From assembly GCF_013167455.1 (NCBI RefSeq), contig NZ_CP038328.1: DNA of 64,000 nucleotides. One strand, written 5' to 3'. Position numbers and translations under genes: made by a program. The notes under the pieces are model-generated. The model saw only the letters and a program-made list of their open reading frames with translations. It did no database searches and was not told the DNA's origin. This DNA is from Escherichia coli O157:H7 (GTDB lineage: Bacteria > Pseudomonadota > Gammaproteobacteria > Enterobacterales > Enterobacteriaceae). This document shows, piece after piece, positions 24,928-62,488 of the stretch. Each line of letters starts with the position of its first letter. Position 1 is the first letter of the stretch.

Positions 24928-25047
24928 ATGCCTGGCAGTTCCCTACTCTCGCATGGGGAGACCCCACACTACCATCGGCGCTACGGCGTTTCACTTCTGA
25001 GTTCGGCATGGGGTCAGGTGGGACCACCGCGCTAAGGCCGCCAGGCA
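24928..25047 (-). rRNA. rrfE: 5S ribosomal RNA
   Basis: Reverse complement matches E. coli 5S rRNA (TGCCTGGCGGCC...GGGAACTGCCAGGCAT), 120 nt. Confidence 0.95.
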
Positions 25048-25139
25048 AATTCTGTTTTATCAGACCGCTTCTGCGTTCTGATTTAATCTGTATCAGGCCG
25101 AAAATCTTCTCTCATCCGCCAAAACACCTTCGGCGTTGT

Positions 25140-28044
<2,905 letters not shown>

Positions 28045-28237
28045 TCACAACCCGAAGATGTTTCTTTCGATTCATCATCGTGTTGCGAAAATTTGAGAGA
28101 CTCACGAACAACTTGCGTTGTTCAGTGTTTCAATTTTCAGCTTGATCCAGATTTTTAAAGAGCAAATATCTCAAACATCACCCGAAGATGAGTTTTGAGA
28201 TATTAAGGTCGGCGACTTTCACTCACAAACCAGCAAG

Positions 28238-28313
28238 TGGCGTCCCCTAGGGGATTCGAACCCCTGTTACCGCCGTGAAAGGGCGGTGTCCTGGGCCTCT
28301 AGACGAAGGGGAC
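28238..28313 (-). tRNA. gltV: tRNA-Glu (UUC) in 16S-23S spacer
   Basis: Reverse complement GTCCCCTTCGTCTAGAGGCCCAGGACACCGCCCTTTCACGGCGGTAACAGGGGTTCGAATCCCCTAGGGGACGCCA. Confidence 0.95.
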
Positions 28314-28398
28314 GTATCAGTCTGCTTCGCAAGACGCCTTGCTTTTCACTTTCTATCAGACAATCTGTGTGAGCACTGCAAAGTACGCTTCTTTAAGG

Positions 28399-29940
<1,542 letters not shown>

Positions 29941-32157: not shown

Positions 32158-33447
32158 ATGAAAGTATTAGTGATTGGTAACGGCGGGCGCGAGCACGCGC
32201 TGGCCTGGAAAGCGGCCCAGTCGCCGCTGGTTGAGACTGTTTTTGTTGCTCCGGGTAACGCAGGCACAGCGCTGGAACCCACGCTGCAAAACGTCGCTAT
32301 CGGCGTGACCGATATCCCGGCGCTGCTGGATTTCGCGCAAAACGAAAAGGTAGATCTAACCATCGTCGGCCCGGAAGCGCCGCTGGTGAAAGGCGTGGTC
32401 GATACCTTCCGCGCCGCCGGGATGAAAATCTTCGGCCCAACCGCAGGCGCCGCACAGCTGGAAGGCTCGAAAGCGTTTACTAAAGATTTCCTGGCCCGCC
32501 ATAACATTCCTACGGCGGAATATCAGAACTTCACCGAGGTAGAACCTGCGCTGGCGTATCTGCGTGAGAAAGGCGCGCCAATCGTCATTAAAGCGGACGG
32601 TCTGGCTGCCGGGAAAGGCGTTATCGTGGCGATGACGCTGGAAGAAGCGGAAGCGGCTGTTCACGATATGCTGGCGGGCAACGCGTTTGGCGACGCGGGT
32701 CATCGCATCGTTATCGAAGAGTTCCTCGACGGCGAAGAAGCGAGCTTTATCGTGATGGTGGACGGCGAGCATGTGCTGCCGATGGCCACCAGCCAGGATC
32801 ACAAACGCGTAGGCGATAAAGATACCGGGCCGAACACGGGCGGAATGGGCGCTTACTCTCCTGCGCCGGTAGTGACAGATGACGTTCATCAGCGCACGAT
32901 GGAACGTATCATCTGGCCAACCGTGAAAGGCATGGCGTCGGAAGGCAACACCTACACCGGTTTTCTCTACGCGGGCCTGATGATCGACAAACAGGGCAAT
33001 CCGAAGGTTATCGAATTTAACTGCCGCTTTGGCGATCCAGAAACCCAGCCGATTATGCTGCGCATGAAGTCCGATCTTGTTGAACTCTGCCTGGCGGCCT
33101 GTGAAGGCAAACTAGACGAGAAAACGTCAGAGTGGGATGAACGTGCTTCTCTCGGCGTGGTGATGGCTGCGGGTGGATATCCGGGCGATTACCGCACCGG
33201 TGACGTGATCCACGGCCTGCCGCTGGAAGAAGTGGAAGACGGCAAAGTGTTCCACGCGGGCACAAAACTGGCGGATGACGAGCAGGTGGTAACCAGCTGC
33301 GGGCGCGTACTGTGCGTCACCGCGCTGGGTCATACCGTAGCAGAAGCACAGAAACGCGCCTATGCCTTAATGACCGATATCCACTGGGACGACTGCTTCT
33401 GCCGGAAAGATATCGGCTGGCGCGCTATCGAACGCGAGCAGAACTAA
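32158..33447 (+). CDS. purD: phosphoribosylamine-glycine ligase
   Basis: Start at ATG 32158 giving MKVLVIGNGGREHALAWK... (429 aa) matching PurD. Confidence 0.95.
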   Translation: MKVLVIGNGGREHALAWKAAQSPLVETVFVAPGNAGTALEPTLQNVAIGVTDIPALLDFAQNEKVDLTIVGPEAPLVKGVVDTFRAAGMKIFGPTAGAAQLEGSKAFTKDFLARHNIPTAEYQNFTEVEPALAYLREKGAPIVIKADGLAAGKGVIVAMTLEEAEAAVHDMLAGNAFGDAGHRIVIEEFLDGEEASFIVMVDGEHVLPMATSQDHKRVGDKDTGPNTGGMGAYSPAPVVTDDVHQRTMERIIWPTVKGMASEGNTYTGFLYAGLMIDKQGNPKVIEFNCRFGDPETQPIMLRMKSDLVELCLAACEGKLDEKTSEWDERASLGVVMAAGGYPGDYRTGDVIHGLPLEEVEDGKVFHAGTKLADDEQVVTSCGRVLCVTALGHTVAEAQKRAYALMTDIHWDDCFCRKDIGWRAIEREQN

Positions 33448-34769
33448 CGCGACAATTTTGCCAACAGCGTTTTGCGCGTGATCCCTAACTGACGGGCGGC
33501 TTCGGTTTTGTTGCCGCCCGTTTTCTCCAGTGCCGCCAGAATCACTTCTTTTTCGACTTCCACCAGCGGCTGAATATCCAGGCTTTGTGCCAGCGGGATC
33601 GGCGTACTGGCAATCGCCAGCGGCAGCTCGCGTTCGGAAATATATTCCCCAGTCAGCAGCACCACCGCCCGTTCCACCGCATTTTCCAGTTCACGAATAT
33701 TTCCCGGCCAGTCGTAATGAATCAACAGATCCATCGCCTGGGGCGTAAAGCCTTTTACCGCCTTGCGATTACGTTCAGCAAAGCGCTGCAGAAAATGGCC
33801 AGCCAGCAGAGGAATATCTTCCCGCCGTTGCCGCAGCGATGGTACTTCAATCGCCACCACGTTCAGGCGATAGTAGAGATCCTGGCGAAAACGCCCGGCA
33901 TTCACCTCTGCGGCAAGATCGCGATGGGTCGCGGCAATCAGCCGGACATCAACCGAAATAGTCTGGTTGCTACCGACACACTGAACTTCGCGCTCCTGAA
34001 TCGCACGCAGCAGACGCACCAGCATCATCGGCGAGATATCGCCAATTTCATCGAGAAACAACGTGCCGCCGTCCGCCTCAACAAAGCGCCCTTCCCGGCG
34101 TTTATCGGCTCCAGTAAACGCCCCTTTTTCGTGACCGAACAATTCAGATTCCAGCAAGGATTCGTTGAGTGCCGCACAGTTGAGCGTTACCAGCGGTTTT
34201 TCGCTACGTGCGCTACTGGCGTGAATCGCCCTGGCGACCAGCTCTTTACCGGTGCCGGAATCGCCGTGGATCAGCACCGTGGCTTCCGATGGCGCGACGA
34301 GGGCGATTTCACTGAGCAGGTGTTGCATCGCCGGGCTTTTACCGACCATACCGAACTGGCTGGCAGTCACCGCAGGCGTTTCAGCATCAATAATGTGCGT
34401 ATGCGCGAGCGCCTTTTCCAGCGTCGCCTGCAGGTTATCGAAATCCAGCGGCTTGATGAGATAATCCAGCGCCCCGGTTTTCAACGCCTCTACCGCCGTC
34501 TCGACGCTAGAGTATGCGGTCATAATCAGTACCGGAATCGCCGGATTTAACGCTTTGATCTCTTTTAGCGTGGCAATGCCGTCCATCTCCGCCATTCGCA
34601 CATCGCAAAGCACAAGATCAAAAACCCGCTCCCGCACCTGCTCCAGCGCCTGTCGCCCGCTGTTCGCCAGCGCGACGTTATAGCCCCAGCCGCGCAGCAA
34701 AGCCTGCAAAATAGTGCAGTGGCTAATGTCATCATCCACCACCAGAATATCGATATTATCGTGCGTCAT
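33444..34769 (-). CDS. zraR: sigma54-dependent response regulator ZraR
   Basis: 441-aa ORF with receiver domain, AAA+ sigma54-activator core (GESGTGKE-type Walker A, GAFTGA) and C-terminal HTH. Confidence 0.93.
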   Translation of the reverse strand: MTHDNIDILVVDDDISHCTILQALLRGWGYNVALANSGRQALEQVRERVFDLVLCDVRMAEMDGIATLKEIKALNPAIPVLIMTAYSSVETAVEALKTGALDYLIKPLDFDNLQATLEKALAHTHIIDAETPAVTASQFGMVGKSPAMQHLLSEIALVAPSEATVLIHGDSGTGKELVARAIHASSARSEKPLVTLNCAALNESLLESELFGHEKGAFTGADKRREGRFVEADGGTLFLDEIGDISPMMLVRLLRAIQEREVQCVGSNQTISVDVRLIAATHRDLAAEVNAGRFRQDLYYRLNVVAIEVPSLRQRREDIPLLAGHFLQRFAERNRKAVKGFTPQAMDLLIHYDWPGNIRELENAVERAVVLLTGEYISERELPLAIASTPIPLAQSLDIQPLVEVEKEVILAALEKTGGNKTEAARQLGITRKTLLAKLSR

Positions 34770-36142
34770 CCTTGTGGGTCCTTACGCGTAATATTGACCG
34801 GAAGCCAGAGGGTGAACCTTGCGCCTTTTCCCTCCAGGCTTGCGACCTGAATTGTACCACCGTGTTGTTCAACAATATTATGCACGACCGCCAGCCCCAG
34901 TCCGGTGCCTTCGGCTTTGGTGGTGAAGTACGGGGTGAAGATGGCTTCAAGCTGATCTGCCGCAATTCCCTTACCGCTGTCGGTAACGCTGATTTTCACG
35001 CCCGCGCCGCTTTCGCTGGCCGTCACGCTAATCACGCCATGCTGACCAATCGCCTGAATAGCATTGAGATAAAGATTCAACAGGACCTGAGTCAGCCTGT
35101 CCGGATCGGCCTGAATTTCCGGCAACGTGTCGTTGGCGGTAAAGCGTAACTGGATCTCCCGGCAGTTTGCATCCTGGCTTACCAGCTGTAATGAGTGGTT
35201 AATCAGCGTGTTGAGATCCACCGCCTGCAAAGCCAGATGCGTTGGCTTAACCAGTTCCAGCAGCTCGCTTACCACGCGGTTTAAACGGTCAGCTTCTTTC
35301 GCCATCACCTGCGCCAGTTGATGCGCTTCTCCCCCTGCTGGCGCGCGCTCGGCAAAGTATTTTGCCAGCCCTTTAATCGAGGAAAGCGGGTTACGAATTT
35401 CGTGGGCAACGCCTGCCGCAAGATGCCCCAGCGCCACCAGCTTCTCTTTGCGCTTCATTTCATCTTGTAGAAGCTGGCGCGAGCGCAGATAGCGGCGATA
35501 CCAGAAGAATGACAATACGCTTGCCAGCAAGACCGTCGCCAGGGCGAAGAGGATAATCAGGGTGTTTCTCTGCTCACGATCTTCGGCACTCACAATATTA
35601 CTGGCGTCGAAAGCGATGAAAATTGCTTGTGGTGTCGCGGCATACTGCTGCATATGGCGCATCCGGTGCATTCCAGCAGCAAACATCGGTTGAAACTGGC
35701 GATAAATTTCCAGAACAGGCTCGCCGTCTGCGCTATCGATCCGCCGCCACACTTCTTCATCTCCCGGATGTAACTGCTGCATTTCCTGCGGGGAATAAAG
35801 CTGTTTTCCCACCATGCCGGAGTTGCTATGCATCACGATTGTTCCTTGTTCATCCGTGACCGCAAACCAACGTACTCCAGGCTGCCCGGCCATTTCTTCC
35901 AGTAAGGCCTGCTGCTGCGCATGATGCATGCGCATCCCCATGCCGACGCGCGAGCCGGATTCGAGAGCACGAATAAGTACACTGCCTTTTTCCAGCAGCG
36001 TTTGTCTGGCGGCGGCAGTCTCGCGGCCATAATCGCGAATCACCGTCACCGCAAACAACCCTACCAGCCCAACAATGACCACGGGGAGGATCGCGCTTAA
36101 CCATTTAGCTAAGGAGTCTTTAGAACGTTGCATAAAACGCAT
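34766..36142 (-). CDS. zraS: sensor histidine kinase ZraS
   Basis: 458-aa ORF with two TM segments and HisKA/HATPase domains (LAAGVAHEIRNPL); 4-bp overlap with zraR. Confidence 0.92.
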   Translation of the reverse strand: MRFMQRSKDSLAKWLSAILPVVIVGLVGLFAVTVIRDYGRETAAARQTLLEKGSVLIRALESGSRVGMGMRMHHAQQQALLEEMAGQPGVRWFAVTDEQGTIVMHSNSGMVGKQLYSPQEMQQLHPGDEEVWRRIDSADGEPVLEIYRQFQPMFAAGMHRMRHMQQYAATPQAIFIAFDASNIVSAEDREQRNTLIILFALATVLLASVLSFFWYRRYLRSRQLLQDEMKRKEKLVALGHLAAGVAHEIRNPLSSIKGLAKYFAERAPAGGEAHQLAQVMAKEADRLNRVVSELLELVKPTHLALQAVDLNTLINHSLQLVSQDANCREIQLRFTANDTLPEIQADPDRLTQVLLNLYLNAIQAIGQHGVISVTASESGAGVKISVTDSGKGIAADQLEAIFTPYFTTKAEGTGLGLAVVHNIVEQHGGTIQVASLEGKGARFTLWLPVNITRKDPQG

Positions 36143-36173
36143 CTTCTTCTTTGCCTGCTCATCCCTTTCTGAC

Positions 36174-36189
36174 AGCAGAAATCATGCCA
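36174..36189 (-). promoter_or_regulatory. sigma54 promoter for zraSR
   Basis: Minus strand TGGCATGATTTCTGCT with consensus -24 GG / -12 GC spacing. Confidence 0.65.
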
Positions 36190-36240
36190 TCTTTTATCAG
36201 CGCTTACCCTGCGCTGTAACACAAAGGCTTAAGTTTCAAT

Positions 36241-36286
36241 GAGTAAAAATGACTCGCTACCCGCAGCAGGCGAGTCATTTTTACTC
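36241..36286. promoter_or_regulatory. ZraR enhancer: 17-bp inverted repeat between divergent sigma54 promoters
   Basis: GAGTAAAAATGACTCGC ... GCGAGTCATTTTTACTC, perfect arms separated by 12 bp. Confidence 0.75.
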
Positions 36287-36328
36287 GTTTATCATGCCAG
36301 ATTACCCGTCATATCAGCGTTTCATCGT

Positions 36329-36344
36329 TGGCACGGAAGATGCA
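36329..36344 (+). promoter_or_regulatory. sigma54 promoter for zraP
   Basis: TGGCACGGAAGATGCA, exact -24/-12 spacing. Confidence 0.75.
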
Positions 36345-36379
36345 ATACCCGAAGTAAGACAACCACTGGAGGATTAACC

Positions 36380-36805
36380 ATGAAACGGAACACGAAAATT
36401 GCCCTGGTAATGATGGCGCTTTCAGCAATGGCGATGGGATCGACATCTGCATTTGCTCACGGCGGACACGGTATGTGGCAGCAAAATGCCGCGCCTTTGA
36501 CCAGCGAACAACAGACAGCGTGGCAGAAAATCCATAATGACTTTTACGCTCAAAGCAGCGCACTGCAACAGCAACTGGTGACGAAGCGTTATGAATACAA
36601 TGCCCTGTTAGCCGCGAACCCACCGGATAGCAGCAAAATTAACGCGGTCGCCAAAGAGATGGAGAATTTGCGTCAGTCGTTAGATGAGTTACGGGTGAAA
36701 CGGGATATTGCGATGGCTGAAGCGGGTATTCCGCGCGGAGCCGGAATGGGCATGGGCTACGGCGGCTGCGGTGGTGGCGGTCATATGGGTATGGGCCACT
36801 GGTAA
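36380..36805 (+). CDS. zraP: zinc-resistance-associated periplasmic protein ZraP
   Basis: Start at ATG 36380 after GGAGG; MKRNTKIALVMMALSAMAMGSTSAFA signal peptide, Gly/Met/His-rich C-terminus; 141 aa. Confidence 0.9.
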   Translation: MKRNTKIALVMMALSAMAMGSTSAFAHGGHGMWQQNAAPLTSEQQTAWQKIHNDFYAQSSALQQQLVTKRYEYNALLAANPPDSSKINAVAKEMENLRQSLDELRVKRDIAMAEAGIPRGAGMGMGYGGCGGGGHMGMGHW

Positions 36806-36806
36806 A

Positions 36807-37508
36807 TCAGAACGTTTTCTCGTTGGGTTGCCAGCGACAGAAATCAGAGTTTGCCACTAACAGTAATTGCGAACCTTCGGGCGCTTCCAGCCATGCCACG
36901 CTGACATCAACAGAAGAGCGGCTCTGGCGGCGCTCGATATGCGCTATTGCCTGCGAATCTAAATCAGGTTTAATGGTTTGCCCTTCGCAGGTGGTCACGG
37001 TCTGTTCCATCGCATGCCAGCGCCCCTGGCGCAGCACGACTCTCCCCTGACGTAAGGCATCGCTAATCTGGCGGATCTGATCAGCCCGATAACGGTATAA
37101 ATCGATTTGGTCGTTAGAAAGCTGCTGCTTTTCCCCATCGGATTCACGTTGCATAAAGCTCAGATCACCGCGATCGTCAAAACGCGCGCGAATATTCACC
37201 GGGGGTTTGCTGTAAACATTGATATTGATGAGCGTGAGGTTATCGCCCTGCCAGCGATACTCTCGCGTCGTGGTATCGCCACTGCGCCACGGGCTAAACA
37301 CGGCAAGAAAATGCACATTATCGCCGCTGTCTTTTCGCCAGATGCGTACCGCGCCCTGGTCTTCAGCAAATCCACTGGCGGTAAAGGGAGGAAGTGAAGA
37401 GTTGTGACTACAAGCAGTGAGAAACAGAGCGCCAGCCAGCATCAATGATCGACGCCAGAAAGACAAAAGGGGTGAAACCACCCCTTCGTTAAAACTGTTC
37501 ACTGCCAC
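36807..37508 (-). CDS. yjaH: DUF1481-family putative lipoprotein YjaH
   Basis: 233-aa ORF with N-terminal signal/lipobox-like LTAC; conserved position between zraP and hupA. Confidence 0.8.
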   Translation of the reverse strand: MAVNSFNEGVVSPLLSFWRRSLMLAGALFLTACSHNSSLPPFTASGFAEDQGAVRIWRKDSGDNVHFLAVFSPWRSGDTTTREYRWQGDNLTLININVYSKPPVNIRARFDDRGDLSFMQRESDGEKQQLSNDQIDLYRYRADQIRQISDALRQGRVVLRQGRWHAMEQTVTTCEGQTIKPDLDSQAIAHIERRQSRSSVDVSVAWLEAPEGSQLLLVANSDFCRWQPNEKTF

Positions 37509-52723: not shown

Positions 52724-55700
52724 TTACTCGTCTTCCAGTTCGATGTTGATACCCAGCGAACGAATCTCTTTCAACAATACGTTGAAGGATTCTGGCATGC
52801 CCGGCTCCATCTGATGGTTGCCGTCCACGATGTTTTTATACATCTTAGTACGACCGTTCACGTCATCAGACTTAACGGTGAGCATTTCCTGCAGGGTGTA
52901 TGCTGCGCCGTATGCTTCCAGCGCCCACACTTCCATCTCCCCGAAACGCTGACCACCGAACTGTGCCTTACCACCCAGCGGCTGCTGAGTAACCAGGCTG
53001 TAAGAACCGGTGGAACGCGCGTGCATCTTGTCGTCGACCAGGTGGTTCAGTTTCAGCATGTACATGTAACCAACGGTTACCGGACGTTCGAACTGTTCAC
53101 CAGTGCGGCCGTCGTACAGGCGGATCTGACCAGAAGTCGGCAGGTCGCCAAGTTTCAGCAGCTCTTTAATTTCTGCTTCTTTCGCACCGTCGAACACCGG
53201 CGTTGCGATTGGCATACCTTTGCGCAGGTTTTCAGCCAGACGCATAACTTCTTCATCGCTGAAGGTACTCAGGTCAACTTTCTGACGAACGTCAGCGCCC
53301 AGATCGTACGCACGCTGGATGAATTCACGCAGTTTCGCGACTTCCTGCTGCTGTTTCAGCATGGCGTTGATCTTGTCGCCGATACCTTTCGCAGCCATAC
53401 CCAAGTGGGTTTCGAGGATCTGACCGATGTTCATACGAGACGGTACGCCCAGCGGGTTCAGTACGATGTCTACCGGCGTACCGTTTTCATCGTAAGGCAT
53501 ATCTTCGATCGGGTTGATCTTAGAAATTACACCCTTGTTACCGTGACGACCTGCCATCTTGTCACCAGGCTGGATACGGCGTTTAACCGCCAGATATACC
53601 TTAACAATCTTCAGCACGCCCGGTGCCAGATCGTCGCCCTGGGTGATTTTGCGGCGTTTCGCTTCGAGTTTCTTCTCGAACTCGTGTTTCAGTTCGTCAT
53701 ACTGCTCAGCCAGCTGTTCCAGCTGATTTTGTTTCTCTTCGTCGGTCAGGCCCAGCTCCAGCCAGCGATCGCGCGGCAATTTGTCGAGCTTCTCAGCTTC
53801 AACGCCACCGGCTACCAGCACAGCACGGATACGGCTGAACAGACCCGCTTCGAGGATCTGCAGTTCTTCAGACAGGTCTTTCTTCGCCTGTTTGAGCTGC
53901 ATTTCTTCGATTTCCAGCGCACGTTTGTCTTTTTCTACGCCATCGCGAGTAAAGACCTGAACGTCGATAACCGTACCGGATACACCGTTTGGTACGCGCA
54001 GAGAAGAGTCTTTAACGTCAGACGCTTTCTCACCGAAGATCGCACGCAGCAGTTTTTCTTCTGGGGTCAGCTGAGTTTCACCTTTCGGCGTAACCTTACC
54101 AACCAGAATGTCGCCACCGGTCACTTCCGCACCAATATAAACGATACCGGATTCATCCAGTTTGGAGAGCGCAGCTTCACCCACGTTCGGGATGTCAGCG
54201 GTGATCTCTTCTGGCCCCAGCTTGGTGTCACGGGACACACACGCCAGTTCCTGAATGTGGATGGTGGTGAAACGGTCTTCCTGAACAACACGCTCGGATA
54301 CGAGGATGGAGTCTTCGAAGTTGTAACCATTCCACGGCATGAACGCTACGCGCATGTTCTGACCAAGCGCCAGTTCACCGAGGTCGGTGGACGGACCGTC
54401 TGCCAGCACGTCGCCACGTTCAACCGGTTCACCCAGAGACACACACGGCATCTGGTTAATACAGGTGTTCTGGTTAGAACGGGTGTATTTGGTCAGGTTG
54501 TAGATGTCGATACCTGCTTCACCCGGATACATCTCGTCTTCGTTAACTTTGATAACGATACGGGAAGCATCCACGTACTGAACGACACCACCACGTTTAG
54601 CAACCGCAGTTACACCGGAGTCAACGGCAACAGCACGTTCCATACCAGTACCAACCAGCGGCTTATCAGCACGCAGAGTCGGAACGGCCTGACGTTGCAT
54701 GTTCGCACCCATCAATGCACGGTTGGCGTCATCGTGTTCCAGGAACGGGATCAGGGACGCACCGACGGATACCACCTGCTGGGTGGATACGTCCATGTAG
54801 TCAACCTGGTCACGGCTGAACAAGCTGGATTCGCCTTTGCTACGGCAGGTTACCAGGTCTTCTACGAAGTGGCCTTCTTCATCCAGGTTGGAGTTCGCCT
54901 GGGCGATAACGTAGTTGCCTTCTTCGATAGCAGACAGGTAGTGAATTTCGTCAGTTACAACACCGTCAGTCACTTTACGATACGGAGTCTCAAGGAAGCC
55001 GTATTCGTTAGTCTGTGCGTACACGGACAGAGAGTTGATCAGACCGATGTTCGGACCTTCAGGGGTTTCGATTGGACATACGCGACCGTAGTGAGTCGGG
55101 TGTACGTCTCGAACTTCGAAGCCTGCACGTTCACGGGTCAGACCGCCTGGGCCGAGTGCGGAGATACGACGTTTGTGCGTAATCTCAGACAGCGGGTTGT
55201 TCTGGTCCATAAACTGAGACAGCTGGCTGGAACCGAAGAACTCTTTCACTGCTGCGGAAATCGGCTTGGCGTTGATCATATCCTGAGGCATCAGGGTATC
55301 CAGATCGCCCAGAGACAGACGCTCTTTCACCGCACGCTCTACACGTACCAGGCCAACGCGGAACTGGTTTTCCGCCATTTCGCCAACGGAACGGATACGA
55401 CGGTTGCCGAGGTGGTCGATATCATCGACTTCGCCTTTACCGTTACGGATATCGATGAGCTTTTTCATAACATCAATGATGTCGTCTTTGCTCAGGATAC
55501 CAGAACCTTCGATTTCTTCGCGCAGCAGAGAACGGTTGAACTTCATACGACCAACCGCAGACAGGTCATAACGGTCTTCGGAGAAGAACAGGTTCTCGAA
55601 CAGGCTTTCCGCTGCTTCACGAGTCGGCGGCTCGCCAGGGCGCATCATGCGGTAGATTTCTACCAGTGCGCTCAGACGGTCGTTAGTTGGGTCGACACGT

Positions 55701-56752
55701 AAGGTTTCAGAGATATACGGGCCGTGATCCAGATCATTGGTGAACAGCGTTTCGATACGCTTGTGACCAGACTGGCTCAGCTTAGCCAGCAGATCCAGGC
55801 TCAGCTCCATGTTCGCTGCGCAGATCAGCTCGCCGGTAGACTCATCAATATAGTCTTTAGCAACCACTTTACCTGCGATGTACTCAACCGGGACTTCGAT
55901 CAGTTTGACGTCGTCTTTTTCCAGCTGGCGAATGTGGCGCGCAGTGATACGGCGGCCTTTTTCTACGTACACTTTACCGTTAGCTTCGATGTCAAAGGAT
56001 GCGGTTTCACCACGCAGGCGTTCCGGCACCAGTTCCATCTGCAGCTTGTTATCACGGATTTCAAAGATAACTTTTTCAAAGAACAGGTCGAGGATCTGCT
56101 CTGTGGTGTAGTTCAGGGCACGCAGAATGATGGTCGCAGGCAGTTTACGGCGACGGTCGATACGTACGAACAGGTTGTCCTTCGGATCGAATTCGAAGTC
56201 CAGCCAGGAACCACGGTAAGGGATGATGCGCGCGTTATACAGCACTTTACCCGAAGAGTGGGTTTTACCTTTGTCGGAGTCAAAGAAGACGCCCGGACTA
56301 CGGTGCAGCTGGGAAACGATAACACGCTCAGTACCGTTGATAACAAAGGTACCGTTGTCTGTCATGAGCGGAATTTCGCCCATGTAGACTTCTTGTTCTT
56401 TAATGTCTTTTACGGTGCCTTCCGGCGCTTCGCGCTCATAGATCACCAGACGCAGTTTAACGCGCAGCGGTGCGGAATAGGTCACGCCACGGATTTGACA
56501 TTCCTGGACGTCAAACACCGGTTCGCCAAGGCGGTAGCTGACGTATTGCAGCTCGGAATTACCGCTGTAGCTCTGAATCGGGAATACGGAACGGAAAGCA
56601 GCTTCCAGACCATACTGCCCTTCAGGATCTTGCTCGATAAATTTCTGAAACGAGTCAAGCTGGATAGAAAGGAGATAAGGTACATCCAGAACTTGTGGAC
56701 GTTTACCAAAATCCTTACGAATACGTTTTTTCTCGGTATAGGAGTAAACCAT
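52724..56752 (-). CDS. rpoB: RNA polymerase beta subunit
   Basis: Start at ATG giving [20 protein letters not shown]... (1342 aa); rifampicin-resistance cluster I reads wild type. Confidence 0.98.
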
Positions 56753-56999
56753 AGGGTTCCTCAGCTCGCTGACAAGTCGACCCATCTGTCCATTGAGCGG
56801 ACAGTTTGTGCAACACTATTTTGTTGACCGGAAAATGGAACACTTTCCGCAATGCCTGTTGCTATCACGCTTAAACCATTTCATTGCGATTTACACAGAA
56901 CGGACGTCCTGTCGCAGTATATTAAGTCGTCGATAGAAACAAGCATTGAAAGGCACAGCAGTAGTCAAACAGTGTGAAACGCTACTGGTGCCTTACAGC

Positions 57000-62046: not shown

Positions 62047-62122
62047 TGGTGCTGATAGGCAGATTCGAACTGCCGACCTCACCCTTACCAAGGGTGCGCT
62101 CTACCAACTGAGCTATATCAGC
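62047..62122 (-). tRNA. thrT: tRNA-Thr (GGU)
   Basis: Reverse complement GCTGATATAGCTCAGTTGGTAGAGCGCACCCTTGGTAAGGGTGAGGTCGGCAGTTCGAATCTGCCTATCAGCACCA. Confidence 0.95.
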
Positions 62123-62128
62123 ACATCT

Positions 62129-62203
<75 letters not shown>

Positions 62204-62319
62204 ATCCTGGAACTCGGCTACCTGATTTTCATTCTGCACTGAATATCGAGAGAAGCTCTCTTTATTCGAGCCGGTAAGCGAACTTATCGTCTCGGGCTAC
62301 GCCATCGCGTGGCCGAAAT

Positions 62320-62404
<85 letters not shown>

Positions 62405-62412
62405 GGACTTGA

Positions 62413-62488
<76 letters not shown>

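What the first reader, a model, noticed from the sequence alone, without database searches (positions are those of the whole stretch)
36143..36379. zraP/zraSR divergent sigma54 promoters around a 17-bp inverted-repeat enhancer
Exact-spacing sigma54 elements are readable on both strands (TGGCACGGAAGATGCA toward zraP at 36329-36344; TGGCATGATTTCTGCT toward zraS at 36174-36189) on either side of a perfect inverted repeat (36241-36286). This matches the established ZraR-activated architecture and is internally consistent with the gene calls. It is well described, so interest is low.
Basis: partly seen in the sequence, partly recalled or inferred. Interest (0 to 1): 0.2.

Follow-up and report, generated by a model that had tools for sequence, protein, structure and literature searches.

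The report
Known zraP/zraSR divergent sigma54 control region
This is the well-studied E. coli zraP–zraSR intergenic region, where two back-to-back sigma54 promoters share one ZraR enhancer made of two inverted 15-bp boxes; it is real, conserved across enteric genera, and already known.

Summary
TGGCACGGAAGATGCA lies at 36329-36344 (+). TGGCATGATTTCTGCT lies at 36189-36174 (-). A perfect 17-bp inverted repeat (36241-57 / 36270-86) fills the middle of the 237-bp gap between zraS (ATG 36142, -) and zraP (ATG 36380, +).

The window is E. coli. Published sigma54 ChIP-seq lists these exact 17-mers for zraP and zraS. Published ZraR gSELEX and ChIP-exo place ZraR in this spacer.

In 16 loci from five genera, four blocks stay 92-97% identical: the two sigma54 cores and the two boxes, consensus (Y)GRGTCATTTTTACYC(R). 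The rest of the spacer has drifted to 32-51%. Box spacing is 31 bp in 16 of 16 loci.

I refine the reading in three ways:
- The conserved unit is a 15-16-bp box with its own GRGT-N7-ACYC dyad, so most likely one ZraR dimer binds per box.
- The arms are conserved as sequence, not as a hairpin.
- Escherichia lacks 11 bp, one helical turn, between box 2 and the zraP promoter.

No IHF consensus, sigma70 promoter or Rfam family is present. A conserved island at 36204-36225 is unexplained.

Verdict: interpretation supported, already known, low interest.

The parts
36329..36344 (+). zraP sigma54 promoter core TGGCACGGAAGATGCA (-24 GG at 36330-31, -12 GC at 36342-43). The predicted transcription start is about 36355, which gives a 25-nt leader.
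   Evidence: Sequence and pattern scan. The motif is identical to the one under sigma54 ChIP-seq peak OS38 in K-12 (PMC4591121). Mean pairwise identity is 0.97 among 8 genus-level representatives, and the element is present in 16 of 16 loci.
36174..36189 (-). zraSR sigma54 promoter core TGGCATGATTTCTGCT (GG at 36188-87, GC at 36176-75). The predicted transcription start is about 36163, which gives a 21-nt leader.
   Evidence: Sequence and pattern scan. The motif is identical to the one under ChIP-seq peak OS39. Mean pairwise identity is 0.97 across genera, and the element is present in 16 of 16 loci.
36241..36257 (.). ZraR box 1, the left arm of the inverted repeat. The conserved core is 36241-36255, GAGTAAAAATGACTC, with an internal dyad GAGT-N7-ACTC. 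Its centre at 36248 is at -85 relative to the predicted zraS start and -107 relative to zraP.
   Evidence: repeat. (consensus GRGTAAAAATGACYC, 16 of 16 loci). (identity 0.92, against 0.32 for the flank).
36258..36269 (.). Spacer between the arms: 12 nt between the 17-bp arms, or 16 nt (36256-36271) between the conserved 15-bp cores. Its length is fixed and its sequence is free.
   Evidence: the spacer differs in almost every locus and is always 16 nt between cores. (identity 0.48).
36270..36286 (.). ZraR box 2, the right arm. The conserved core is 36272-36286, GAGTCATTTTTACTC. In most genera it extends to GCGAGT-N7-ACTCGC, with a conserved CTT flank. Its centre at 36279 is at -76 relative to the predicted zraP start and -116 relative to zraS.
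   Evidence: (identity 0.96, flank 0.73).
36355..36379 (+). Predicted zraP 5' leader, with the Shine-Dalgarno sequence GGAGGA at 36368-36373.
   Evidence: Sequence. The start is predicted from the -12 element and was not mapped here. The 25-nt distance agrees with PMC4591121 Table 1.
36380..36805 (+). zraP coding sequence (141 aa, periplasmic Metal_resist family protein).
34766..36142 (-). zraS coding sequence (458 aa sensor histidine kinase).
33444..34769 (-). zraR coding sequence (441 aa sigma54 activator: receiver, AAA+ domain with GAFTGA, and Fis-type HTH).
   Evidence: (1OJL ZraR, E = 5e-176).
36204..36225 (.). Conserved island TTACCCTG (36204-11) ... ACACAAA (36219-25), between the zraS promoter and box 1. 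It lies at -41 to -62 relative to the predicted zraS start. Its role is unknown.
   Evidence: Alignments A1 and A2. Identity is 0.84 and 0.67, against 0.32-0.51 for neighbouring spacer. It matches neither the IHF consensus nor a sigma70 promoter.

Best explanation
The 237-bp gap between zraS and zraP is a shared control region for two divergent sigma54-dependent promoters driven by one enhancer.

Sigma54 RNA polymerase sits in a closed complex on each -24/-12 element: 36329-44 facing zraP and 36189-74 facing zraSR. The enhancer consists of two 15-bp ZraR boxes in inverted orientation, with centres at 36248 and 36279. These are 31 bp apart, about three helical turns, so they lie on the same face of the DNA. 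Relative to the predicted starts they sit at -76/-107 for zraP and -85/-116 for zraS.

When ZraS senses periplasmic Zn/Pb or envelope stress, it phosphorylates ZraR. ZraR dimers bound to the two boxes nucleate the active AAA+ oligomer. DNA looping brings it to either closed complex, and ATP hydrolysis via the GAFTGA loop opens the promoter. The result is ZraP production and positive autoregulation of zraSR.

Shown by sequence or published data:
- promoter motifs and their sigma54 occupancy;
- ZraR binding to this spacer;
- Zn- and ZraR-dependent expression;
- conservation of boxes and spacing.

Inferred:
- one dimer per box;
- oligomer nucleation and looping, by analogy with NtrC;
- the exact transcription start sites;
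- independence from IHF.
For: - Exact motifs and repeat.
- Gene identities and the ZraR domain set, including GAFTGA.
- Sigma54 ChIP-seq peaks on these exact 17-mers: PMC4591121.
- Salmonella sigma54 ChIP-chip plus sigma54-dependent transcripts, 16x for zraP and 3.7x for hydHG: PMC3844500.
- RpoN holoenzyme gSELEX peak in the spacer: PMC8743547.
- ZraR gSELEX, with 81 of 86 clones from this spacer: PMC8249747.
- ZraR ChIP-exo peaks, and zraS down 3.18 log2 in the zraR knockout under Zn: PMC7657598.
- HydG binds the intergenic region when a phosphoryl donor is present: PMC5391612 citing Leonhartsberger 2001.
- Phylogenetic footprint in 16 loci from Escherichia, Salmonella, Citrobacter, Pluralibacter and Kosakonia. 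Promoter cores are 0.97 identical and boxes 0.92/0.96, against 0.32-0.51 for other spacer. Box spacing is 31 bp in 16 of 16 loci.
- Each box has an internal dyad GRGT-N7-ACYC, which suits a Fis-type HTH dimer.
- The only large indel between enhancer and promoter is 11 bp, which preserves helical phase.
Against: - No base-level footprint could be read here, because the primary paper is not held.
- A review lists the ZraR enhancer sequence as 'NK', not known (PMC4987338).
- EcoCyc rated both promoters only 'predicted' as of PMC4591121.
- Transcription starts were not mapped here.
- One modelling paper counts a single ZraR site at its own promoter (PMC3219618). That fits one dimer on the whole repeat as well as it fits my two-dimer reading.
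Confidence: 0.93

Rival explanations
1. The whole 46-bp inverted repeat is one binding site for a single ZraR dimer, with each 17-bp arm acting as a half-site. On this reading there are not two dimer sites.
For: The two arms are perfect reverse complements. PMC3219618 tabulates one ZraR binding site at its own promoter.
Against: The arm centres are 31 bp apart. By general knowledge of NtrC/Fis-type sites, that is too far for the two HTH_8 domains of one Fis-type dimer, which read half-sites about 11 bp apart. Each box has its own dyad GRGT-N7-ACYC, extended to GCGAGT-N7-ACTCGC in box 2. The 16 nt between the boxes are not conserved.
Confidence: 0.12
2. The inverted repeat works as a nucleic-acid hairpin, for example a terminator, RNA element or cruciform, and not as a protein-binding site.
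For: It is a strong predicted hairpin: -18.8 kcal/mol, z = -9.1.
Against: - It lies upstream of both predicted transcription starts, between divergent genes, so it is not expected to be transcribed.
- No T-run follows it, and the terminator scan found none.
- Of 20 pairs, 12 never vary and the variable ones show no significant covariation: 26 of 500 shuffles reach the covariation score, and 143 of 500 reach the count of double changes.
- No Rfam family reaches threshold.
Confidence: 0.03
3. The region 36249-36377 encodes the 42-aa 'hypothetical protein' that RefSeq/PGAP annotates there (WP_001297563.1).
For: It is annotated in some E. coli RefSeq genomes. The ORF is open in the window.
Against: - The start codon lies inside ZraR box 1 and is ACG in E. 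albertii, which also has an early stop.
- Outside Escherichia the frame is broken by the 11-bp indel and by stops.
- The only 'conserved' peptide stretches (MTR, ASHFYSL, LARKMQ) are translations of box 1, box 2 and the sigma54 core.
- It has no Pfam match.
Confidence: 0.02

Closest known systems
E. coli / Salmonella zraP-zraSR (hydHG) regulatory region itself (Leonhartsberger et al. 2001; sigma54 ChIP-seq of Bonocora et al. 2015; Samuels et al. 2013)
   Same: The promoter 17-mers and the 154-bp distance between motif centres are identical to those of K-12. The gene order purD-zraR-zraS / zraP-yjaH-hupA is the same. This is the same locus in another E. coli strain.
   Different: Nothing of substance differs. 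The held literature does not spell out the box consensus, and one review lists it as not known. The cross-genus consensus and spacing given here are therefore a small refinement, not a discovery.
NtrC enhancer at glnAp2 (general knowledge: two strong dyad sites about three helical turns apart, roughly 100-140 bp upstream of a sigma54 promoter)
   Same: Both have two dyad-symmetric sites for a response-regulator-type activator with a Fis-type HTH, spaced about three turns apart (31 bp here). Both sit about 75-120 bp upstream of a GG-N10-GC promoter.
   Different: The box sequence is different, GRGTCATTTTTACYC with an invariant A5/T5 centre. Here one enhancer serves two divergent sigma54 promoters, whereas the glnAp2 enhancer serves one.
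NorR enhancer in the norR-norVW divergent region (PMC2831303)
   Same: The activator gene and its target are divergently arranged, with the enhancer sites in the shared spacer.
   Different: NorR needs three enhancer sites (PMC2831303 abstract). Here only two boxes are conserved, and both divergent promoters are sigma54-dependent.

Membership tests
sigma54 (RpoN)-dependent promoter | -24 GG and -12 GC elements with exactly 10 nt between the GG and GC dinucleotides, matching TGGCAC-N5-TTGCW | tested here: met
   Both elements match TGGCAYN6TGCW with GG-N10-GC spacing. Published PSSM scores are 12.3 and 11.4 for the identical 17-mers (PMC4591121).
sigma54 (RpoN)-dependent promoter | Placed upstream of, and oriented toward, a gene start | tested here: met
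   The predicted starts at 36355 and 36163 lie 25 and 21 nt from the zraP and zraS ATGs.
sigma54 (RpoN)-dependent promoter | Occupied by sigma54 holoenzyme, and transcription depends on rpoN | not testable with these tools
   This is known from the literature on the identical sequence: ChIP-seq (PMC4591121), in vitro gSELEX (PMC8743547), and Salmonella ChIP-chip with sigma54-dependent transcripts (PMC3844500).
sigma54 (RpoN)-dependent promoter | Transcription start mapped about 12 nt downstream of the GC element | not tested
   No start-site data could be read here. EcoCyc status was 'predicted' according to PMC4591121.
Bacterial enhancer (UAS) for an NtrC-family activator | A cognate activator with an AAA+ sigma54-interaction domain (GAFTGA) and a C-terminal HTH is encoded at the locus | tested here: met
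   ZraR has Response_reg, Sigma54_activat (6e-71), AAA_lid_14 and HTH_8 domains. GAFTGA is visible in the translation. The match to 1OJL ZraR has E = 5e-176.
Bacterial enhancer (UAS) for an NtrC-family activator | Dyad-symmetric sites about 70-150 bp upstream of the promoter, spaced by whole helical turns | tested here: met
   The box centres are at -76/-107 (zraP) and -85/-116 (zraS) and are 31 bp apart in 16 of 16 loci. Each box has the dyad GRGT-N7-ACYC.
Bacterial enhancer (UAS) for an NtrC-family activator | Sites under purifying selection while the surrounding spacer drifts | tested here: met
   Boxes are 0.92/0.96 identical, the inter-box spacer 0.48, and flanks 0.32-0.35.
Bacterial enhancer (UAS) for an NtrC-family activator | Direct binding of the activator to the boxes at base resolution | not testable with these tools
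   Only region-level binding is documented in the held papers: gSELEX, ChIP-exo, and HydG binding to the intergenic region. The footprinting paper is not held.
IHF-assisted sigma54 promoter | A WATCARNNNNTTR site between enhancer and promoter, conserved in position | tested here: not met
   Allowing up to 1 mismatch, there are only scattered hits that are not conserved in position, and none in 10 of 16 loci. The region is therefore not filed as IHF-dependent. The consensus scan is crude.
ZraPSR envelope-stress / zinc-responsive system | Orthologous zraP, zraS and zraR in conserved synteny | tested here: met
   The region is 100% identical to an annotated E. coli locus and is present in 5420 of 5426 complete genomes. 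The same neighbours (DUF1481/yjaH, hupA, yjaG) flank it in five genera.

The most novel reading that the evidence does not exclude
The conserved island TTACCCTG-N7-ACACAAA (36204-36225) lies only on the zraS side of the enhancer. It may be a binding site for an undescribed additional factor or architectural element that tunes zraSR autoregulation separately from zraP. In parallel, the Escherichia-specific loss of exactly 11 bp on the zraP side would re-tune the enhancer-promoter distance while keeping helical phase.
Probability: 0.15. Interest if true: 0.3.

Novelty: already known. Interest (0 to 1): 0.1.

Why it matters
This is a textbook-style example of one enhancer serving two divergent sigma54 promoters, and the zraP promoter is widely used in zinc and lead biosensors. 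Confirming it adds no new biology. The cross-genus box consensus, the fixed 31-bp spacing and the phase-preserving 11-bp indel are modest, practical refinements for promoter engineering. They also help correct a spurious 42-aa ORF annotation that sits on the enhancer.

Tried and rejected
- My first sigma54 pattern had one N too many and found nothing. The corrected pattern found both sites.
- The first related-locus call used the wrong frame, ATG at 36381 instead of 36380, and failed.
- Leonhartsberger 2001 is not in the held library. My recollection that its abstract describes 'two inverted repeats separated by a 14-bp spacer' is from memory only and is not used as evidence.
- Full-text searches for the box sequence returned only unrelated primer matches. 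Searches for descriptions of the site gave nothing at base level.
- The sigma70 promoter and terminator scan of 36000-36900 found none.
- The Rfam E-value scan found only sub-threshold chance hairpin hits.
- The IHF consensus scan found no positionally conserved site.
- The covariation test gave no support for a hairpin reading.
- A second ATCATGCCA at 36291-99 reads as a -24-like TGGCATGAT on the - strand. I rejected it because it has no -12 GC at the right spacing and is not conserved even within Escherichia.
- I looked by eye for sigma70, sigmaE, CpxR or ZraR-box resemblance in the 36204-25 island and found nothing convincing.

Full report
**1. What is in the sequence**

The stretch 36143-36379 is exactly the gap between two divergent genes. 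zraS starts at 36142 on the minus strand, with zraR behind it at 34769-33444. zraP starts at 36380 on the plus strand.

The window is E. coli. A 438-bp query across the gap is 100% identical to O157:H7 strain PV15-279 and other strains. It is present in 5420 of 5426 complete E. coli genomes. RefSeq annotates purD, zraR, zraS, zraP, yjaH and hupA around it.

Pfam confirms the protein identities:
- ZraR has a receiver domain, a sigma54-interaction AAA+ domain (E = 6e-71), an AAA lid and a Fis-type HTH_8.
- ZraS has HisKA and HATPase_c domains.
- ZraP belongs to the Metal_resist family.

The ZraR translation shows the GAFTGA motif. It matches the solved ZraR structure 1OJL at E = 5e-176.

**2. 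Checking the observation**

All three features sit at the stated coordinates.
- TGGCACGGAAGATGCA is at 36329-36344 (+).
- TGGCATGATTTCTGCT is at 36189-36174 (-).
- Both have the canonical GG-N10-GC spacing.
- The inverted repeat is 17/17 complementary, 36241-57 and 36270-86, with a 12-nt spacer. It extends to 20 nt per arm at 95%.

Chance does not explain them.
- The degenerate sigma54 pattern occurs three times in 64 kb, against 0.86 expected. Two of the three fall in this 237-bp gap, each facing the adjacent gene.
- The 17-mer with up to three mismatches occurs only as these two arms.
- The hairpin energy is 9 standard deviations below shuffles.

The third pattern match, 53613-28 (-), lies inside the 1353-aa ORF at 52724-56785 (-), which by size and position I take to be rpoB. 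It is not in the published sigma54 site tables.

**3. Published evidence on the same sequence**

Sigma54 binding:
- Bonocora et al. list sigma54 ChIP-seq peaks OS38 (TTGGCACGGAAGATGCA, zraP, 25 nt from predicted start to gene) and OS39 (ATGGCATGATTTCTGCT, zraS, 21 nt). These are the window's sequences, with the same 154-bp distance between motif centres. EcoCyc status at that time was 'predicted' (PMC4591121).
- In Salmonella, Samuels et al. found sigma54 ChIP-chip enrichment at TGGCACGGAAGATGCAAG (zraP) and TGGCATGATCTCTGCTTA (hydH). They also found sigma54-dependent transcripts, 16-fold and 3.7-fold (PMC3844500). These match what I read in the Salmonella locus L012.
- Reconstituted RpoN holoenzyme selects this spacer in vitro (PMC8743547).

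ZraR binding:
- Purified ZraR selects the zraP/zraSR spacer as its single strong target, with 81 of 86 clones (PMC8249747).
- ChIP-exo finds ZraR upstream of zraP and zraSR. zraS falls 3.18 log2 in a zraR knockout under zinc (PMC7657598).
- A review notes that HydG binds the intergenic region when a phosphoryl donor is present, citing Leonhartsberger 2001 (PMC5391612).

That primary paper is not held. None of the held papers gives the box sequence, and one review lists the ZraR enhancer as 'NK' (PMC4987338).

**4. Phylogenetic footprinting**

I collected 15 further loci:
- Ten came from a genome-collection scan with ZraP: Escherichia coli, E. whittamii, E. albertii, an Escherichia sp. and several Citrobacter.
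- Five came from exact-protein look-ups: Salmonella, Pluralibacter (listed as [Enterobacter] lignolyticus), Kosakonia, C. rodentium and C. freundii.

All 16 loci, including the window, carry both sigma54 cores and both boxes.

| Region | Mean pairwise identity, 8 genus-level representatives |
|---|---|
| zraP and zraS sigma54 cores | 0.97 and 0.97 |
| Box 1 and box 2 | 0.92 and 0.96 |
| 16 nt between the box cores | 0.48 |
| Remaining spacer | 0.32-0.51 |

The box consensus is (Y)GRGTCATTTTTACYC(R). Start-to-start spacing is 31 bp in 16 of 16 loci.

The perfect 17-bp extent is therefore an E. coli detail, and the selected unit is 15-16 bp. Each box has its own dyad, GRGT-N7-ACYC. In box 2 of most genera this extends to GCGAGT-N7-ACTCGC. 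Its half-site centres are about 11 bp apart, around an invariant A5/T5 tract.

**5. Hairpin or protein site**

A pair-by-pair count over the 20 potential pairs shows 12 invariant pairs. The variable pairs show no significant covariation: the covariation score is reached by 26 of 500 shuffles, and the count of double changes by 143 of 500. Several mismatches are tolerated.

The repeat lies upstream of both predicted starts. It has no T-run and no Rfam match. The arms are conserved as primary sequence, as expected of protein-binding sites.

**6. Geometry**

Transcription starts are predicted 12 nt downstream of the -12 C, the same convention as PMC4591121.

| Lineage | Box centres relative to zraS start | Box centres relative to zraP start |
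|---|---|---|
| E. coli (window) | -85 / -116 | -76 / -107 |
| Other four genera | -84 or -85 / -115 or -116 | -87 / -118 |

In the other genera the layout is nearly mirror-symmetric. Escherichia lacks 11 bp between box 2 and the zraP -24 element. That is one helical turn, so rotational phase is kept. The zraS side has essentially no length variation.

No positionally conserved IHF consensus exists on either side. No sigma70-like promoter was found.

**7. Mechanism**

The best-supported reading is the standard activator mechanism for sigma54 promoters.
1. ZraS phosphorylates ZraR.
2. ZraR dimers bound at the two same-face boxes nucleate the AAA+ oligomer.
3. Looping delivers the oligomer to a sigma54 closed complex on either side.
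4. ATP hydrolysis opens the promoter.
5. The outputs are ZraP and positive autoregulation of zraSR.

Promoter identity, sigma54 occupancy, ZraR binding to the spacer and ZraR/Zn dependence are shown by published data on identical sequence. Box-level contact, one dimer per box, looping, IHF independence and the exact starts are inferences.

The main live alternative concerns detail: one dimer spanning the whole repeat. I rate it about 0.12, because 31 bp is too far for one Fis-type dimer and each box has its own dyad.

**8. Comparison and verdict**

This is the known zraP-zraSR control region, not merely something like it. Its layout resembles the two-site NtrC enhancer at glnAp2 (general knowledge) and the divergent NorR region (PMC2831303). 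It differs in box sequence and in serving two sigma54 promoters from one enhancer.

Novelty: already known. Interest is low, at 0.1.

The only unexplained item is the conserved island TTACCCTG...ACACAAA at 36204-36225 on the zraS side, with identities of 0.84 and 0.67.

Noticed in passing
window 36249-36377 (+): RefSeq/PGAP annotates a 42-aa 'hypothetical protein' (WP_001297563.1) here in some E. coli genomes. It starts at the ATG inside ZraR box 1 and runs over box 2 and the zraP sigma54 core. The start is ACG in E. albertii, and the frame is broken in all other genera. Only the peptide stretches that translate the regulatory elements are 'conserved', so it is almost certainly a spurious gene call.
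   Followed up: yes
window 36204-36225: A conserved island, TTACCCTG-N7-ACACAAA, lies between the zraS promoter and box 1, at -41 to -62 relative to the predicted zraS start. Its identity is 0.84 and 0.67, against about 0.35-0.5 for neighbouring spacer. It matches no IHF, sigma70 or ZraR-box pattern, and there is no counterpart on the zraP side.
   Followed up: partly
window 36287-36328, compared with L007-L016 at about 1396-1448: All six Escherichia loci lack 11 bp between box 2 and the zraP -24 element, relative to Salmonella, Citrobacter, Pluralibacter and Kosakonia. The distance from box 2 start to the GG is 58 nt against 69 nt, one helical turn. The zraS side shows no comparable length change.
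   Followed up: yes
window 53613-53628 (-): A third match to the sigma54 pattern, TGGCACCGGGCGTGCT, lies in sense orientation inside the 1353-aa ORF 52724-56785, which by size and position I take to be rpoB. It is not among the published E. coli sigma54 ChIP-seq sites I could search and is probably a chance match.
   Followed up: partly
window 36291-36299: A second copy of ATCATGCCA reads as a -24-like TGGCATGAT on the minus strand, just right of box 2. Nearby are weak direct repeats of TATCAGCGYTT (36195-205 and 36312-22). There is no -12 GC at the right spacing, and the copy is not conserved in E. whittamii or E. albertii, so it is probably chance.
   Followed up: yes
L012 1-1436 (-), Salmonella: The public gene call for Salmonella zraS in this record is 528 aa and reaches position 1436. 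It therefore runs across the whole intergenic region, including both ZraR boxes (1350-1395). The start codon was probably called too far upstream.
   Followed up: no
window 24930-29940, 41788-41888, 47581-47741, 62050-62488: Context features found by Rfam: an rRNA operon on the minus strand with a spacer tRNA, a TPP riboswitch ahead of the ORF that starts at 41969, sroH sRNA, and a cluster of four tRNAs near 62 kb. All are ordinary for this part of the E. coli chromosome.
   Followed up: no
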